From Nanobdellota archaeon (GTDB taxonomy: Archaea > Nanobdellota > Nanobdellia > Woesearchaeales > JAHWHD01): 50,147 nucleotides of DNA. The notes below the pieces were generated by a model. It was not told the DNA's origin. It saw only the letters and a list, made by a program, of their open reading frames with translations, and ran no database searches. The stretch lies in assembly GCA_034722435.1 (NCBI GenBank), contig JAYENX010000056.1:9181-59327 (forward strand). The letters run 5' to 3'. Positions 35,336 to 41,256 of the stretch are shown here, piece by piece. Position 1 is the first letter of the stretch. Every line of letters begins with the position of its first letter. A program made the position numbers and the translations under genes.

Positions 35336-38272
35336 GATGAACGGTTGGAAACTGCATGCTGAACCACTCGCCGAAGCTTGAGGCTTACACACCAGTTCCA
35401 TTAAACCTGTGTTTTACAGGAGCTCTACAATGTCTCTTTTCAAGGCGGGTTTCGAGCTTAGATGCTTTCAGCTCTTATCCCTTAATGCGTAGCTGCCCGG
35501 CATACCTTATCAGATAACCGGTCGACCAGTGGCATCGATCCTTCGTTCCTCTCGTACTAGAAGATTCTTCCTTTCAGACATCAACAATTCCAGTAGATAT
35601 CAAACAAACTGTCTCACAACGTTCTGAACCCAGCTCACGATCCCTTTTGATGGGTGAACACCCCCACCCTTGGACGCTTCTGCACGTCCAGGATAGGAAG
35701 AGCCGACATCGATGTAGCAAGCCGCGCCGTCGATTTACTCAAAATTTTGACGTTTTTTTGTCGAAATTTTATGAGCTCTCGGGCGCGACAACTCTGTTAT
35801 CCCCGGAGTAACTTTTCAGTCATTTCAAGCCCCCAATAAGGAGGACATTGAAGTTCGCTAGGCCAAACTTTCGTTTTTGAATTTCTTTCGATAGGAAACT
35901 CAATCAGGCTGGCTTTTGCCCTTGCACTCTACTCTGGATTTCTGACCCAGATGAGCCAACCATTGGGCCCTACTGATATCTTTTCAGCAGGGTGCCACCC
36001 CAGCCAAACTGCCCACATACCGCTGTCCCAAGATTTTCTCTCAGTTAGCAACGTAATTTCAGAAGAGTGGTGTTTCATTGGTGTCTATTCACGAACTGGC
36101 GTTCGTAACGTAACAACTCCCACTTACACTGTACAACTAAAATCACGTTACAACGATAAGCTGCAGTAAAGTTTCACGGGGTCTTCGCTTCCCACTGGAA
36201 TTCTCCGGCTTTTGCACCGGAAAAGAGTTTTCGGTGGATTCTAACTAGGGACAGTGACGATCTCGTTACGCCATTCATGCAGGCCGTCATTCAAACGGCA
36301 AGGCATTTCGCTACCTTAAGAGAGTTATAGTTACCCCCGCCGTTTACCAGCTCTTAGCTCAGTTGAAACCAAGTTTCAAGTACTGGCACTGGGCAGACGT
36401 CACCACCTGTACACACCCTTACGGGCTAGCAGGCAGTTAAGTTTTTGTTAAACAGTCGGACCGTCTTAGTCACTGCGCCCTGCAATCGCATTCATAAGAA
36501 CACAAAAGCAGGGACCCCTTATACCGAAGGCACGGGGCTAATTTGCCGAATTCCCTTAGTTAGATTAATCCATCACGCTTTAGGTTTCTCACCTAGGGGC
36601 ACCTGTGCTGGTTCTGGGTATAGATACCTAAGATTTGTTTTGATTCCTTTTTCACGGGCTCCAGATATCAGCCACATACCTCATACGAGATACTATTCCC
36701 AGATTTGGTCCAGTTCTCGCCATTACAGCACTCCCTGGACATATTCTGGTTAACATGAACGATGGTTCATGGTGACCTATTCAGAAACGTCAGAAATCAA
36801 ACTTGTGTTGCCACACATACTTAGGCAGTAAAGGAATATTAACCTTTTTCCCTTTCCTGACACTCGAATTACGAGCTCAGTTAGGATTAACTAACCCTTG
36901 ACTGATTTTCATTGTCAAGGAACCCTTGCCCTTTCAGCGGTACTGATTCTCACAGTACTCTGTTCCTACTACCACCGGGATCCTCATTTCTACCAGGTCC
37001 ACATCCTCTCACAAAAATGCTTCTACCCTAGCAGAACGCCTATCTATCATTCACTTTTAAGTGATCTACAGTATCGGTTATCAACTTAGCCCCGTCCATT
37101 TTCAAGGCCTATAACCTTGACAAGTAAGCTGTTACGCACTTATTATAGGATGGCTGCTTCTAAGCCAACCTCCTCGCTGTCTGTGGCTATAGACGCTTTT
37201 CACCCTTTAACACTTAGTTGATAATTAGGGACCTTAACTGTAGTCTGGGTTGTTCCCCTTTCGAGACTCACCCTTACGACGAGCCTCCGTCTCCCGAGGT
37301 CTACGATGCTCAAATATTCGGAGTTGGACAAGAAACCGAGGGATTTCTCCCCCTAAATCTCCAATCCGTATCTCTACCTTCATGAGCTATCTCGCTCGAG
37401 ACTTGACTGCGGCCAACTTTGATAGGAACCAGCTATCGCCGAACTCGATTGGCTTTTCACCCCTAACCCCAAGTTAGAAGAACACTTGTCCGTAGCACCT
37501 CTTCAGGCCTCCACAATGTTTAACCATTGCTTCACCTTACTCAGGGTTAGATCGTTCGGCTTCGGGTCGTATCCAAGTGACTAATGGCACGTTAGTACCA
37601 CGCCCCTTGCAAGCTGCGGGCATATCGGTTTCCCTATGAGTACTTTTTTACAAATTACTCTTGCCACTTAAATACACTCCCCGGCACGTTATTCAAAACG
37701 AACGGCACAACTCCTAAGAGCCGTACCCCTCTATGTCTGTTAGGTTTCAGAGTCTTTTCGCTCCCTATCAAGGGTTCTTTTCAACTTTCCATCACTGTAC
37801 TTGTTCGCTATCGGACTTTAAACGTATTTAAAGTTAGAAGTTATTGCCTCCCAGATTCCTGCTCAATTTCCAATGAACAGTACTCAAGATACTACTAGAC
37901 CTTTCAACTTTCCCCTACGTGACTATCACACTTTATAGTGCCTCTTTCCAGAGGACTTCAGGTCAGATGACTAAGGCTGAAAAGTAGTCTTACAACACCA
38001 CATCTCCTAACTATTTCTAGCAGGATTCAGTTTGCTTTGGGCCGTGTTCAGTCGCTCTTACTAACGGCATCTCAATTGATTTCTTTTCCTACAGGTACTA
38101 AGACGTTTCAATTCCCTGTGTTCCCAATCCTTACGGATTTTCTCCTAAGAGAAGGGATTTCCCATTCGGGGACCTTTGGTTCAATGACTACATGCGTCTC
38201 GCCAAAGTATAGTGTCGCTTGTCACACCCTTCATCAGCGTTAAAGCCAAGTCATCCACCTAACAGATTACAA
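35336..38272 (-). rRNA. rrl: 23S rRNA (archaeal) containing one 36-nt intron; ends approximate
   Basis: PTC segments GGGAUAACAG and CUCGAUGUCGG-like UACAUCGAUGUCGG, SRL AGUACGAGAGGAAC, 5' GGUGGAUGACUUGG. Confidence 0.97.
35735..35770 (-). other. BHB-type intron in 23S helix 89 (E. coli 2477/2478)
   Basis: Removal restores GAGAGCUCAU|AUCGACGGC; central helix GCUC/GAGU with bulges AU|A and AA|A. Confidence 0.85.
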
Positions 38273-38422
38273 AATTTGGAATTCCACGAATTATGCACGG
38301 TTTCATAAATATCAACCTCAAATCCTGAAAATACAATCAGGATTTGGTAAATTAAATGTCTGTTAAGACGTGAACTCACGAAAAATCGTTAAATTTTTCT
38401 AAGTCCTTTTGCTTGCGCAAAA

Positions 38423-38531
38423 TGGACCCGCCGGGACTTTCATCCACTAACAGGTCATTATATTAGTGATTTTTGAACCCGAGGCCCCCGCTTTGCAAGA
38501 GCGATGCTCTACCAGGCTGAGCTACGGGCCC
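38423..38531 (-). tRNA. tRNA-Ala(UGC) in the 16S-23S spacer; 35-nt intron at 59/60 (38437-38471)
   Basis: GGGCCCG...CU-UGC-AA...GGG-UUCA-AA|A...UGAA-AG|U-CCCGG; G3-U70 pair. Confidence 0.95.
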
Positions 38532-39315
38532 ATAAAAAAAATGAGGTAGGTTTGATTAAAATAATTAAAATAAAAAAAGGAGGTGATCCATCCGCAGGTT
38601 CCCCTACGGATACCTTGTGACGACTTAGCCCTCCTCACAAAGCTTAGATTCGAACTACCCAAAAGGTGGTTCTCATCTAAACCCTGCTCGGGTGGCTTGA
38701 CGGGCGGTGTGTGCAAGGCACAGGGACATATTCACTGGACGCTGATGACGTCCAATTACTAGGGATTCCAGCGTCACGAGGATGAGTTTCAATCCTCGAT
38801 CCGAACTTGGGTAAGGTTTCGAGGCTTAACTTCCCCTTTCGGGGTCGTATCCCATTGTCCTTACCATTGTTGCGCGCGTGTAGCCCAGAGGATTCGGAGC
38901 ATACTGACCTACCGTAGCCTGCACCTTCCTCCACGTTTCCATGGCAGTCTCTACAATGTGCACGCCTTCTAAAGAAAACGTTAGCAATTGTAGACACAGG
39001 TCTCGCTCGTTGCCAGACTTAACTGGACACCTTGCGGCACGAGCTGACGGCGGCCATGCACTACCTCTCGGCTCGTCAAGTAAGGTCTTTAGCCTGACTT
39101 TCATCCTGCCGTCGCCCCTGGTGAGATTTTCTGTGTTGAATTAGATTAAACCGCACGCCGCACCCCTTGTGGTGTGCCCCCGCCAATTCCTTTAAGTTTC
39201 AGCCTTGCGACCGTACTTCCCAGGCGGCGAGCTTAACACCTTCGCTCCGACACCGCGCATGTATTAACATACGCGACACCTAGCTCGCAGAGTTTACAGC
39301 TGGGACTACTCGGGT

Positions 39316-39417
39316 AGTTAGCGAGTGAATCATCATATAGCAACTTCTTTCGTTCACTTGTAATAGATTTATGGAACAACTTACAAGTTATTCCAGAAGT
39401 CAGACATGATTCCTCGT
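39316..39417 (-). other. 102-nt BHB intron in the 16S helix 24 (790) loop (E. coli 793/794)
   Basis: Central helix UUAG/CUAA, bulges AU|A and CU|A; ligation gives GGAUUAGAU|ACCCGAGUAGUCC. Confidence 0.9.
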
Positions 39418-39904
39418 ATCTAATCCGGATTGCTCCCCCAGCTTTCGTCCCTCACCGTCGGATCCGTTCTGGTTAGACGCCTTCGCCACTGGCGGTCCTT
39501 CAGGGATTATAGCATTTTACCGCTCCCCCCGAAATACCTCTAACCCCTCTCCGGTCCCAAGTCTGACAGTCTCTTTTGCACGCTGTTGAGTTAAGCCCAA
39601 CAATTTCACAGAAGATTTACCAAACAGGCTACGGACGCTTTAGGCCCAATAAAACTGGTTGCTACTTGTGGCGCAGGTGTTACCGCGGCGGCTGGCACCC
39701 GTCTTTCCCACCACTTATTCGCCAAGATTTTTACTCTTAACAAAAGCCCATACAATGTATGAGCACTTGGGGTTCCCTTATCACACTTGCGTGCATTGTA
39801 AAGGTTTCGCGCCTGCTGCACCCCGTAGGGCTAGGACCAGTGTCTCAGTGTCCTTCTCGGGGCTACCTCTCTCAAGGCCCCTATTGATCGTCGGCTTGGT
39901 GGGC

Positions 39905-39947
39905 ATATAATTTTTCAAAAAGAAATTATAAGATTTCCTTCGAAAAT
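39905..39947 (-). other. 43-nt BHB intron in the 16S helix 11 loop (E. coli about 265/266)
   Basis: Central helix GUAA/UUAU, bulges AG|A and AU|G; ligation gives GGUGGGGUAAAG|GCCCACC. Confidence 0.85.
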
Positions 39948-40732: not shown

Positions 40733-40747
40733 ATTGTGAACATGATA

Positions 40748-40885
40748 TGGGCCCGCGGGGACTTTCATGCAAGCTTTTAACTCGACAATTTGAACCCCGG
40801 ACCACCGGCTCTCTTAGAGCCAATGTCCTTTGAAAGGAACGAGGTCATATAAGACCGGCGCTCCACCAGACTAAGCTACGGGCCC
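40748..40885 (-). tRNA. tRNA-Ile(UAU); two introns: 37/38 (40811-40847, 37 nt) and 59/60 (40762-40788, 27 nt)
   Basis: C32-U33-U34-A35 pairs with intron UAAG (bulges UA|U and AG|A); second BHB UUCA/UGAA; A73. Confidence 0.9.
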
Positions 40886-41023
40886 AGTCTTATATGAGTT
40901 CGTAATAATCTATTTTTAAATCTTTCGTTGAATATGTGATTAGAATGCTTGGAATTTAGATAGTATTTTAAGTTAACTATTTTGAAAAGGTTGAAACATG
41001 ATTCTTGAATAGGGTTTCAGAAA

Positions 41024-41094
41024 TGCGGCGACCGAGAATCGAACTCGGGCCAAGCCCGTGGCAGGGGCCTATTGTACCACTCAACCATCGCCGC
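41024..41094 (-). tRNA. tRNA-Gly(GCC), intronless
   Basis: GCGGCGA...CU-GCC-AC...UUCGAUU...UCGCCGC-A cloverleaf. Confidence 0.97.
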
Positions 41095-41126
41095 GTAAAT
41101 AAAAATTAAATTAAAAATATGAAATA

Positions 41127-41256
41127 TGGGTCCGCCCGGATTTGAACCGGGGATTAACGCCTTTCTAATACGACGAAGAAAGACAAAAGTCTTTTTCGTT
41201 GCCTTGTAAGGGCGCTGTCATCTATGGCGAATCCGTAACCACTAGACCACGGACCC
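41127..41256 (-). tRNA. tRNA-Val(UAC); two introns: D-loop 20a/21 (41222-41236, 15 nt) and 37/38 (41163-41204, 42 nt)
   Basis: D-loop BHB GUGG/CCAU with bulges UU|A and AG|A; anticodon intron forms a long hairpin with relaxed helix CUUA/UUAG. Confidence 0.9.

What the first reader, a model, noticed from the sequence alone, without database searches (positions are those of the whole stretch)
35735..41236. Nine BHB mini-introns in 5.5 kb: a shared intron system across tRNA and rRNA
Seen: three rRNA and six tRNA introns of 15-102 nt, all ORF-less, all in hairpin loops whose native stem forms the outer BHB helix. Inference: all ribosome and tRNA production at this locus depends on EndA/ligase. 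The introns may spread by reverse splicing without homing endonucleases, and may protect conserved sites from integrating elements or nucleases.
Basis: partly seen in the sequence, partly recalled or inferred. Interest (0 to 1): 0.7.

Follow-up and report, generated by a model that had tools for sequence, protein, structure and literature searches.

The report
tRNA-type mini-introns riddle a DPANN rRNA operon
The only ribosomal RNA operon of this tiny Woesearchaeota (DPANN) archaeon, and four of the five tRNA genes beside it, are broken by nine short protein-spliced introns of a well-known archaeal kind; the count is right and the density is striking, but the mechanism is ordinary.

Summary
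Observation confirmed to the base. On the minus strand, 35735-41236 holds nine ORF-less inserts of 15-102 nt. Six are in tRNA-Val, Ile(UAU), Glu and Ala. Two are in 16S (h11 loop; 790 loop, 793/794). One is in the 23S H89 loop.

Removing them restores four clean cloverleaf tRNAs and the universal rRNA sequences. Five fold as strict bulge-helix-bulge (BHB) motifs and four as slightly relaxed ones.

Relatives in the same order carry inserts at the same three rRNA sites in the same BHB register, with compensatory base changes and patchy presence: 4/25, 7/20 and 8/24 genomes. The 790-loop signature matched 40 of 301 genomes of the order and 0 of 28 from other orders.

The genome has one rRNA operon, one EndA and one RtcB. 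Dependence on splicing therefore follows by inference, but no RNA data could be obtained.

No intron sequence is shared between tRNA and rRNA sites. What is shared is the enzyme, not an intron family. Reverse splicing and site protection remain untested.

Verdict: a new member of a known kind (Thermoproteales rRNA mini-introns; DPANN disrupted tRNAs). Two modest extras: a conserved, structured ~100-nt 790-loop intron family, and an insert-less alpha4-like EndA. The scan has noted T-loop introns in Woesearchaeota before, and BHB mini-introns in Asgard archaea. Same-genus comparisons rest on unpublished G001.

The parts
41127..41256 (-). tRNA-Val(TAC) gene with two introns
   Evidence: After excision, ARAGORN calls a 73-base tRNA-Val(tac) cloverleaf.
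41222..41236 (-). 15-nt intron in the D-loop of tRNA-Val (strict BHB, minimal size)
   Evidence: Central helix GTGG/CCAT 4/4, two 3-nt bulges, h' 2 bp, outer helix 2 bp. 32 of 5000 shuffles reach the score.
41163..41204 (-). 42-nt intron at canonical position 37/38 of tRNA-Val (relaxed BHB)
   Evidence: Outer helix is the anticodon stem (5 bp). The 3' bulge is AA|A. The central helix is 3/4 (U.U mismatch). The 5' site lies in a 4x1 loop next to a long hairpin. Weak on its own: 1558 of 5000 shuffles reach the score.
41024..41094 (-). tRNA-Gly(GCC), the only intron-less tRNA of the cluster
   Evidence: ARAGORN and Rfam, 62.3 bits.
40748..40885 (-). tRNA-Ile(TAT) gene with two introns
   Evidence: The spliced form is called tRNA-Ile(tat), 74 bases.
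40811..40847 (-). 37-nt intron at 37/38 of tRNA-Ile (strict BHB)
   Evidence: Central helix CTTA/TAAG 4/4, outer helix 7 bp, h' 2 bp. 25 of 5000 shuffles.
40762..40788 (-). 27-nt intron in the T-loop (59/60) of tRNA-Ile (strict BHB)
   Evidence: Central helix TTCA/TGAA 4/4, outer helix is the T-stem (5 bp), h' 3 bp. 16 of 5000 shuffles.
40629..40732 (-). tRNA-Glu(TTC) gene with one intron
   Evidence: The spliced form is called tRNA-Glu(ttc), 75 bases.
40643..40671 (-). 29-nt intron in the T-loop (59/60) of tRNA-Glu (relaxed at the 5' site)
   Evidence: Central helix TTCG/CGAA 4/4, 3' bulge AT|T, outer helix is the T-stem. A 7-bp h' is set off by 2+2 unpaired bases. 447 of 5000 shuffles.
38578..40183 (-). 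16S rRNA gene (single copy in the genome)
   Evidence: RF01959, 1395 bits, full model. One 16S match in G000.
39905..39947 (-). 43-nt intron in the helix-11 hairpin loop of 16S (about E. coli 265/266 by my count), strict BHB
   Evidence: Central helix GTAA/TTAT 4/4, outer helix is the native 8-bp stem, h' 4-10 bp. Excision restores the consensus loop seen in 21 intron-less relatives.
39316..39417 (-). 102-nt intron in the 790 loop of 16S (between U793 and A794, E. coli numbering)
   Evidence: Central helix TTAG/CTAA 4/4, bulges AT|A and CT|A, h' CGAG/CTCG. The outer helix CGG/CCG follows an A.C mismatch. Seven relatives share the register, and h' covaries in 31 sequences.
38423..38531 (-). Spacer tRNA-Ala(TGC) gene with G3:U70 and one intron
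   Evidence: The spliced form is called tRNA-Ala(tgc), 74 bases. Rfam saw only a T-arm-less partial match.
38437..38471 (-). 35-nt intron in the T-loop (59/60) of tRNA-Ala
   Evidence: Central helix TTCA/TGAA 4/4, 3' bulge AG|T, outer helix is the T-stem, 9-bp h' after one A.A mismatch. 58 of 5000 shuffles. A T-loop intron is present in 11 of 13 spacer tRNA-Ala genes of the order (G000 and 12 relatives).
35325..38286 (-). 23S rRNA gene (single copy)
   Evidence: RF02540, 2603 bits, full model.
35735..35770 (-). 36-nt intron in the terminal loop of 23S helix 89 (about E. coli 2477/2478 by my count)
   Evidence: Central helix GCTC/GAGT 4/4, bulges AT|A and AA|A. The outer helix GA/TC is the terminal pairs of the Rfam consensus. 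1 of 5000 shuffles. Eight genomes share the register, including an exon GTTC / intron GAAC compensatory change.

Best explanation
The nine inserts are archaeal BHB introns. The operon and tRNA transcripts fold so that each insert lies between two 3-nt bulges separated by a 4-bp helix. That helix forms between the last exon bases and the 3' end of the intron.

The cell's single splicing endonuclease (EndA, 176 aa, alpha4-like) cuts after the second base of each bulge. RtcB then joins the exons and probably circularises the intron.

The genome has only one rRNA operon, and these tRNAs appear to be single copy. All ribosomes and four tRNA species therefore depend on this pathway.

Shown here: the anatomy, restoration of canonical RNAs on excision, conservation of the BHB register with compensatory changes across genomes, and presence of the enzymes. 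Inferred: actual cleavage, ligation and circularisation.

The introns belong to a lineage-wide, fast-turnover population in Woesearchaeales. They are not a peculiarity of this locus.
For: Gene models and insert positions.

BHB geometry: five strict cases. 16S-b is strict apart from one outer mismatch. Three are relaxed only at the 5' site or by one central-helix mismatch.

Spliced tRNAs are accepted as cloverleafs, and tRNA-Ala keeps G3:U70.

Same-site inserts in relatives:
- 16S-a in 4 of 25 genomes
- 16S-b in 7 of 20
- H89 in 8 of 24
All are 29-144 nt, and 18 of 19 have a 4/4 central helix in the same register, with entirely different h' sequences.

RNAalifold on 31 790-loop introns shows four h' pairs with 11-17 double changes each and one break in total. 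A 14-sequence subfamily folds as a rod with 14 covarying pairs.

Enzymes: EndA has N and C domains. Its Tyr/His/Lys residues align to M. jannaschii 1a79. There is no paralog. RtcB scores 566 bits.

Genome-wide context: ARAGORN and Infernal see only 13 tRNAs. A GC-rich-stem anchor search finds about 40 loci, and a heuristic solver places about 39 introns in 22 of 25 credible tRNA genes, at least 14 of them in the T-loop.

Precedent: short hairpin BHB introns in Thermoproteales 16S (PMC4496867); BHB introns beside group I introns in Woese/Pacearchaeota rRNA (PMC6125680); disrupted tRNAs with alpha4 EndA in DPANN (PMC5829648).
Against: No RNA-level evidence. An exact search for the spliced 790-loop junction with species-specific flanks found nothing in the metagenome contigs.

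The Val 37/38 and Glu T-loop motifs are individually weak (31% and 9% of shuffles).

According to PMC5829648 and PMC3239211, alpha4 enzymes without an insert loop are thought to cut only strict BHBs. This EndA has no such insert, so processing of the relaxed sites is assumed, not shown.

The genome is a 94.5%-complete MAG, so a second EndA subunit or a second rRNA operon could be unassembled.
Confidence: 0.86

Rival explanations
1. The three rRNA inserts are not spliced. They either stay in the mature rRNA as expansion segments, or they are cut out without ligation and leave fragmented rRNA.
For: No transcript data were obtained. DPANN rRNAs are unusual in other ways. The 790-loop insert family has a conserved structured interior, which could also fit a retained element.
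Against: The inserts sit in the 790 loop, the helix 89 loop near the peptidyl-transferase centre, and the helix 11 loop. Each is in a register where cutting after the second bulge base regenerates the universal sequence exactly.

The 4-bp exon-intron helix is kept by compensatory change (GTTC/GAAC). That makes sense for an endonuclease signal and not for an expansion segment.

Sister genomes lack the inserts cleanly. The same geometry is used in the neighbouring tRNAs, which must be ligated. RtcB is present.
Confidence: 0.08
2. The inserts are assembly or binning artefacts, or the operon is a decaying pseudo-operon.
For: The genome is a 60-contig MAG. Several relatives' contigs break at or near the intron sites.
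Against: Independent MAGs carry inserts at identical positions with conserved BHB geometry. This is the only rRNA operon found. Exon sequence scores as full-length rRNA, and the spliced tRNAs are perfect cloverleafs.
Confidence: 0.03
3. The inserts are self-splicing (group I or II) or homing-endonuclease-driven introns.
For: Group I introns occur in Woesearchaeota 23S genes (PMC6125680). Six relatives have 164-718-nt inserts at another 23S site.
Against: At 15-102 nt they are too short for a ribozyme core or an endonuclease ORF. Rfam finds no intron family in the region at gathering thresholds or at E<=1.
Confidence: 0.01

Closest known systems
Short hairpin (<~50 nt) and remnant ORF-less BHB introns of 16S rRNA genes in Thermoproteales (Jay & Inskeep 2015, PMC4496867)
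   Same: ORF-less inserts in conserved 16S loops. A BHB forms at the junction. The flanking cores are conserved, the distribution among relatives is patchy, and universal primers and gene finders are disrupted.
   Different: The host is a mesophile-type DPANN (Woesearchaeales), not a crenarchaeote. Sites 265/266 and 793/794 are not among that paper's 13 loci (374, 548, 722, 781, 803, 901, 908, 919, 978, 1093, 1205, 1213, 1391). The 790-loop family is about 90-145 nt with a conserved rod-like interior.
Non-canonical and multiple tRNA introns of Thermoproteales and DPANN, with EndA co-evolution (Kaneta et al. 2018, PMC5829648; Fujishima et al. 2011, PMC3239211)
   Same: Introns in the D-loop, at 37/38 and at 59/60. 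There are up to three per gene and both strict and relaxed BHBs. Genes are hidden from standard finders. Woesearchaeota and Pacearchaeota were already listed as having an alpha4 EndA and disrupted tRNAs.
   Different: This EndA and its 80 closest Woesearchaeota homologues lack the Lys-rich C-terminal insert seen in the N. equitans alpha subunit. They are collinear with the M. jannaschii alpha4 enzyme. The T-loop is the dominant site here.
BHB introns co-occurring with group I introns in Woesearchaeota/Pacearchaeota rRNA genes (Nawrocki, Jones & Eddy 2018, PMC6125680)
   Same: Same phylum-level hosts, and rRNA genes with BHB-type introns.
   Different: That paper maps group I introns and only shows BHB introns in a figure. 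It gives no account of mini-introns, their sites, their distribution or their link with the tRNA introns.
Stable circular rRNA introns and BHB processing of archaeal pre-rRNA (reviewed in PMC7714728 and PMC8339473)
   Same: The same enzyme pair, EndA and RtcB, acts on tRNA and rRNA precursors.
   Different: Here the BHBs lie inside the mature rRNA domains. A strict scan of the flanks found only one weak BHB-like candidate for the 16S and a few for the 23S, and no convincing BHB in the 16S or 23S processing stems.

Membership tests
Archaeal BHB (EndA-spliced) intron | The insert interrupts a conserved RNA gene, and its exact removal restores the canonical sequence and fold. | tested here: met
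   The Rfam alignments show the inserts. Four spliced tRNAs are accepted by ARAGORN. The rRNA junctions equal the sequence of intron-less relatives.
Archaeal BHB (EndA-spliced) intron | Two 3-nt bulges on opposite strands, separated by a 4-bp helix and flanked by helices (hBHBh'). | tested here: met
   Strict in five cases. 16S-b has one outer mismatch. Val 37/38, Glu-T and Ala-T are relaxed at the 5' site or by one central-helix mismatch. Relaxed forms are accepted members of the family in the literature (PMC5829648).
Archaeal BHB (EndA-spliced) intron | The motif helices are maintained by compensatory changes among homologous introns. | tested here: met
   h' pairs show 11-17 double changes in 31 sequences. 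The H89 central helix changes from GCTC/GAGC to GTTC/GAAC. 18 of 19 same-site inserts have a 4/4 central helix.
Archaeal BHB (EndA-spliced) intron | The host encodes a splicing endonuclease with the catalytic triad, and an RtcB ligase. | tested here: met
   PF01974 and PF02778 hits. Tyr, His and Lys align to 1a79. RtcB PF01139, 566 bits.
Archaeal BHB (EndA-spliced) intron | Excision with exon ligation, and intron circularisation, seen in RNA. | not testable with these tools
The spliced-junction pattern gave 0 hits in metagenome contigs.
Homing-endonuclease-bearing mobile rRNA intron | An intron-encoded LAGLIDADG or other endonuclease ORF. | tested here: not met
   The longest insert is 102 nt, so it could hold at most 33 codons.
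Group I / group II self-splicing intron | A ribozyme core recognisable by a covariance model. | tested here: not met
   No such Rfam match in the window at gathering score, or at E<=1 in 38300-41600. The size is also far too small.
alpha4-type (homotetrameric) EndA | A single gene of about 180 aa with one N-terminal and one catalytic C-terminal domain, no second subunit gene and no specificity-loop insert. | tested here: met
   176 aa with N and C domains. No paralog by HMM or tblastn. Residues 8-176 align to 1a79 residues 4-171 with a one-residue length difference. The Tyr-to-His segment is 17 residues in all 80 homologues. The oligomeric state itself is not testable here, and the MAG is 94.5% complete.

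The most novel reading that the evidence does not exclude
Woesearchaeales maintain a population of endonuclease-less, structured mini-introns. Their best example is a conserved rod-shaped 90-145-nt family in the 16S 790 loop. These introns are gained and lost between sister lineages by an RNA-level route, either reverse splicing or recombination with spliced or unspliced cDNA.

All of them, including those with relaxed 5' sites, would be processed by an insert-less alpha4 EndA. That would break the accepted link between EndA insert loops and broad substrate range. The conserved interior of the 790-loop intron would then reflect a function of the excised, probably circular, RNA or a role in 30S assembly timing.
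Probability: 0.2. Interest if true: 0.65.

Novelty: new member of a known kind. Interest (0 to 1): 0.38.

Why it matters
Practical. These introns hide most tRNA genes of this lineage: 13 are detected against roughly 40 loci. A 2026 survey of complete Nanobdellota genomes left 'missing' tRNAs unexplained (bioRxiv 10.64898/2026.05.13.725050), and this offers an explanation. The introns also interrupt the binding site of the widely used 785F/806R-region 16S primers in the 40 of 301 sampled Woesearchaeales genomes that matched the 790-loop signature. That would bias amplicon surveys.

Biological. A reduced 1.3-Mb genome makes every ribosome depend on three splicing events by the tRNA endonuclease. 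The apparent enzyme is an insert-less alpha4 type, which the literature regards as strict. This gives a cheap in-vitro test of the idea that EndA insert loops determine substrate range.

The fast gain and loss between sister genomes, without any homing endonuclease, makes the group a good place to study how BHB introns move.

None of this changes the known mechanism.

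Tried and rejected
1. ARAGORN's own reading of the first gene as tRNA-Ser(aga) with a 57-nt intron. Rejected: there is no long variable arm, and the two-intron solution gives a textbook tRNA-Val.

2. My first strict scan missed 16S-b, because the first outer pair is A.C. It was resolved by comparison with relatives.

3. Alternative registers for 16S-b and Val 37/38 that fit the mature sequence. All are worse (reasoning; one search takes the best register).

4. Intron sequence families shared between tRNA and rRNA: none above shuffles. The best pair, at 22.3 bits, equals the shuffle maximum and links T-loop introns of tRNA-Arg isoacceptors.

5. A C/D-box reading of the 102-nt intron (AUGAUGA and CUGA are present). 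Rejected, because the boxes are not conserved in other family members.

6. BHB motifs in the 16S and 23S processing stems. A strict scan returned only weak candidates: one for the 16S flanks (h 3, h' 3) and six for the 23S flanks (best h 5, h' 3). The 23S flanks form a 13-bp stem with a 2-nt bulge. This was not pursued.

7. RNA evidence.

8. Pfam on the small basic ORF: no hit.

9. The 16S-only tree is poorly resolved (11 of 16 inner branches open). Only well-supported sister pairs were used for gain/loss statements.

10. One of the 41 pattern hits (G099) lies outside an rRNA gene and was discarded.

11. The genome-wide tRNA solver is heuristic. Three models (C1, C50 and the 248-nt C31 model) look wrong, it mis-set the Val D-loop intron by one base, and nine anchors were not resolved.

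Full report
WHAT IS THERE

The window comes from a 1.3-Mb, 33% GC, 94.5%-complete MAG. Its EndA gene is 65-79% identical to genes on contigs titled Candidatus Woesearchaeota or Nanoarchaeota. The organism is therefore a DPANN archaeon of the order Woesearchaeales.

On the minus strand Rfam finds a full 16S (40183..38578), a full 23S (38286..35325), an intact tRNA-Gly, and a spacer tRNA that seems to lack its T-arm. ARAGORN sees only the tRNA-Gly.

The model alignments show a 44-nt insert early in the 16S and a 38-nt insert in 23S helix 89. Reading the sequence shows three more GC-rich tRNA-like genes upstream of the 16S, and a large insert inside the universal GGATTAGATACCC motif.

CHECKING THE OBSERVATION

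I used the standard BHB geometry. It runs: outer helix, 4-bp central helix, then a 3-nt bulge cut after its second base. The 3' end of the intron supplies the partner strand of the central helix.

This gives nine inserts, listed with coordinates under parts.
- Five are strict BHBs: Val D-loop, Ile 37/38, Ile T-loop, 16S-a and 23S H89.
- 16S-b has a perfect central helix (TTAG/CTAA), two 3-nt bulges and a CGAG/CTCG inner helix. Its first outer pair is A787.C795.
- Ala T-loop and Glu T-loop have 4/4 central helices and clean 3' bulges, but one or two mismatches before the inner helix.
- Val 37/38 has a U.U mismatch in the central helix.

Shuffling each intron 5000 times, with every register that gives the same product allowed, reaches the observed score in 0.02-1.2% of trials for seven introns. 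The figure is 9% for Glu-T and 31% for Val 37/38.

After excision, ARAGORN calls tRNA-Val(tac), Ile(tat), Glu(ttc) and Ala(tgc, G3:U70) as ordinary cloverleafs.

Alignment with relatives shows no other G000-specific insert of 8 nt or more in the 16S. The first 1900 nt of the 23S are collinear with relatives and of similar length. The count of nine stands.

COMPARATIVE EVIDENCE THAT THE rRNA INSERTS ARE INTRONS

Forty relatives of the same order were searched.
- The h11 insert is present in 4 of 25 genomes that span the site.
- The 790-loop insert is present in 7 of 20.
- The H89 insert is present in 8 of 24.

Lengths are 29-144 nt. The junctions in intron-less genomes equal the predicted spliced sequence.

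In the same register, 18 of 19 inserts have a 4/4 central helix, and the inner helices differ completely in sequence while staying paired. In one genome the exon strand of the H89 central helix is GTTC instead of GCTC, and the intron strand is GAAC instead of GAGC. That is a compensatory change across the exon-intron boundary.

RNAalifold on 31 790-loop introns shows 11-17 double changes at each of four inner-helix pairs, with one break.

An expansion segment has no reason to conserve a 4-bp helix with the exon, two 3-nt bulges, and a register that regenerates the universal loop. An EndA substrate does.

DISTRIBUTION AND TURNOVER

An exact pattern for the 790-loop intron (86-146 nt) matched 41 of 301 evenly sampled genomes of the order, with zero matches to the reversed control. 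One hit (G099) is not in an rRNA gene, leaving 40.

In a phylum-level sample it matched 14 of the 93 same-order genomes (G000 included) and none of 28 genomes from other orders of the class. Many MAGs lack an assembled 16S, so these are lower bounds. 'Not found' is not 'absent'.

A 16S exon tree is poorly resolved, but its supported sister pairs differ in intron content:
- G000/G001 at site a
- G007/G033 at site b
- G037/G006 at all three sites
- G020/G004 at two sites

The minimum numbers of changes are 4, 6 and 5.

The tRNA genes behave the same way. The spacer tRNA-Ala carries a T-loop intron in 11 of 13 genomes of the order (G000 and 12 relatives). Five relatives also have a 37/38 intron, and one also has a D-loop intron.

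In the same-genus genome G001 the syntenic tRNA-Val has an extra T-loop intron, tRNA-Ile has an extra D-loop intron, and tRNA-Ala has an extra 37/38 intron. Its 16S lacks the h11 intron. G001, G002 and G133 are unpublished. The same-genus statements rest on G001, and the count of 40/301 includes G001 and G133.

THE LOCUS IS NOT SPECIAL; THE GENOME IS

ARAGORN and the Rfam tRNA model find only 13 tRNAs genome-wide.

I searched for GC-rich acceptor and T-stems in this AT-rich genome. That gave about 40 loci, many with an enlarged T-loop.

A heuristic solver (BHB candidates plus cloverleaf scoring) produced 25 credible models. Twenty-two of them have one to three introns, about 39 in all, and at least 14 are in the T-loop. 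Individual calls of this census are unverified.

MACHINERY

There is one EndA gene with N-terminal and catalytic domains and no paralog even at E=50 by tblastn. There is one RtcB.

EndA aligns end to end with the M. jannaschii alpha4 enzyme, and the catalytic Tyr, His and Lys are in place. It lacks the Lys-rich six-residue insert that the N. equitans alpha subunit carries between Tyr and His. All 80 closest homologues have the same 17-residue segment.

The literature ties cleavage of relaxed motifs to such inserts, and reports an 'L3' insert in diverse DPANN alpha4 enzymes (PMC5829648, PMC3239211). I could not see their figure, so I can only say that no insert relative to M. jannaschii is present here.

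Most introns here keep a perfect central helix and 3' bulge. A strict-type enzyme may therefore suffice. The few relaxed 5' sites are the open point.

Dependence on EndA and ligase follows from single-copy genes but is inference.

The proposed test for shared intron sequences is negative. Among 43 introns the best non-trivial match (22.3 bits) equals the shuffle maximum, and nothing links tRNA and rRNA introns. What is shared is the recognition motif and the enzyme.

Mobility without a homing endonuclease is compatible with the turnover seen. My recollection is that it has been proposed for Thermoproteales tRNA introns (Fujishima et al. 2010); I did not check this paper here. Nothing in this analysis shows reverse splicing.

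Protection of target sites is pure speculation. Six relatives do carry 164-718-nt inserts at a different 23S site.

ONE THING BEYOND THE ORDINARY

The 790-loop introns form recognisable sequence families across many genera. Examples are ACGAGAAAT...TTCTGGAATTAGCTCG...CTAC...TACGAG...ACTCGCTAAYT, an ATCGA... type, and a roughly 140-nt CCACC... type.

A 14-member subfamily folds into a rod: the central helix, an 11-bp inner helix, two further helices, and a terminal loop with conserved bases. Fourteen pairs covary. No Rfam family matches.

Conservation of an ORF-less intron interior across families whose 16S exons are only about 80% identical suggests either constraint on the RNA or recent spread. 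I could not separate these.

COMPARISON WITH WHAT IS KNOWN, AND VERDICT

The following are all published:
- Short ORF-less BHB introns in 16S (PMC4496867).
- BHB introns in Woese/Pacearchaeota rRNA (PMC6125680).
- Multi-intron tRNAs with alpha4 EndA in DPANN (PMC5829648).

The scan itself has already reported T-loop introns in a Woesearchaeota-like genome (e1-3822347), and BHB mini-introns in Asgard genomes.

New here are the three insertion sites, none of which is among the 13 Thermoproteales loci. Also new are their distribution, the 790-loop family, and the insert-less EndA. This is a correct and well-read finding of a known kind. Its interest is moderate to low unless the EndA specificity or the intron-RNA function proves unusual.

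Noticed in passing
window 40490-40591 (minus strand): A 33-codon, extremely basic ORF (about half of its residues are Lys or Arg) lies between tRNA-Glu and the 16S. It is conserved at the same place in G001 (unpublished) and G019. Its C-terminal 20 residues recall ribosomal protein eL41 from memory, but Pfam gives no hit.
   Followed up: partly
window 40748-40885 (minus strand): The tRNA-Ile has anticodon UAU rather than the usual archaeal CAU that is modified to agmatidine. From my own knowledge this is rare (Nanoarchaeum, Korarchaeum). The presence of TiaS was not checked.
   Followed up: no
relatives L128, L129, L131-L134, at the position matching window ~36327 in the 23S: Six relatives carry 164-718-nt inserts at one 23S site where G000 has none. 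These are probably the group I or endonuclease-bearing introns reported for Woesearchaeota (PMC6125680).
   Followed up: no
L024 (G022:C59:26146-29536): One relative's 16S has at least six inserts of 30-140 nt, at query positions ~234, 453, 669, 766, 1149 and 1163. It is an even more fragmented gene than this one.
   Followed up: no
relatives' contig ends (G013:C65, G008:C17, G040:C88 and C58, G020:C17): Several relatives' contigs start or stop within a few bases of the h11 or 790-loop intron sites. Assemblies may be breaking on within-population presence/absence of introns.
   Followed up: no
window 38287-38420 and 35125-35324; 40184-40440 and 38532-38577: A strict scan of the flanks found only weak BHB-like candidates in the 16S or 23S processing stems. 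The 23S flanks pair as a 13-bp stem with a 2-nt bulge. The 16S flanks form a -25.8 kcal/mol duplex with a 9x9 loop.
   Followed up: partly
whole genome G000 (e.g. C16, C36, C46, C11, C23): Standard finders see 13 tRNAs, while GC-rich stem anchors give about 40 loci. The three tRNA-Arg isoacceptors (TCT, TCG, CCT) each seem to hold three introns, including related T-loop introns.
   Followed up: partly
L171-L208 and window 39316-39417: The 790-loop introns fall into at least three sequence types with conserved interiors (for example TTCTGGAATTAGCTCG and a GATTGC...ACTAC loop). No Rfam family matches.
   Followed up: partly
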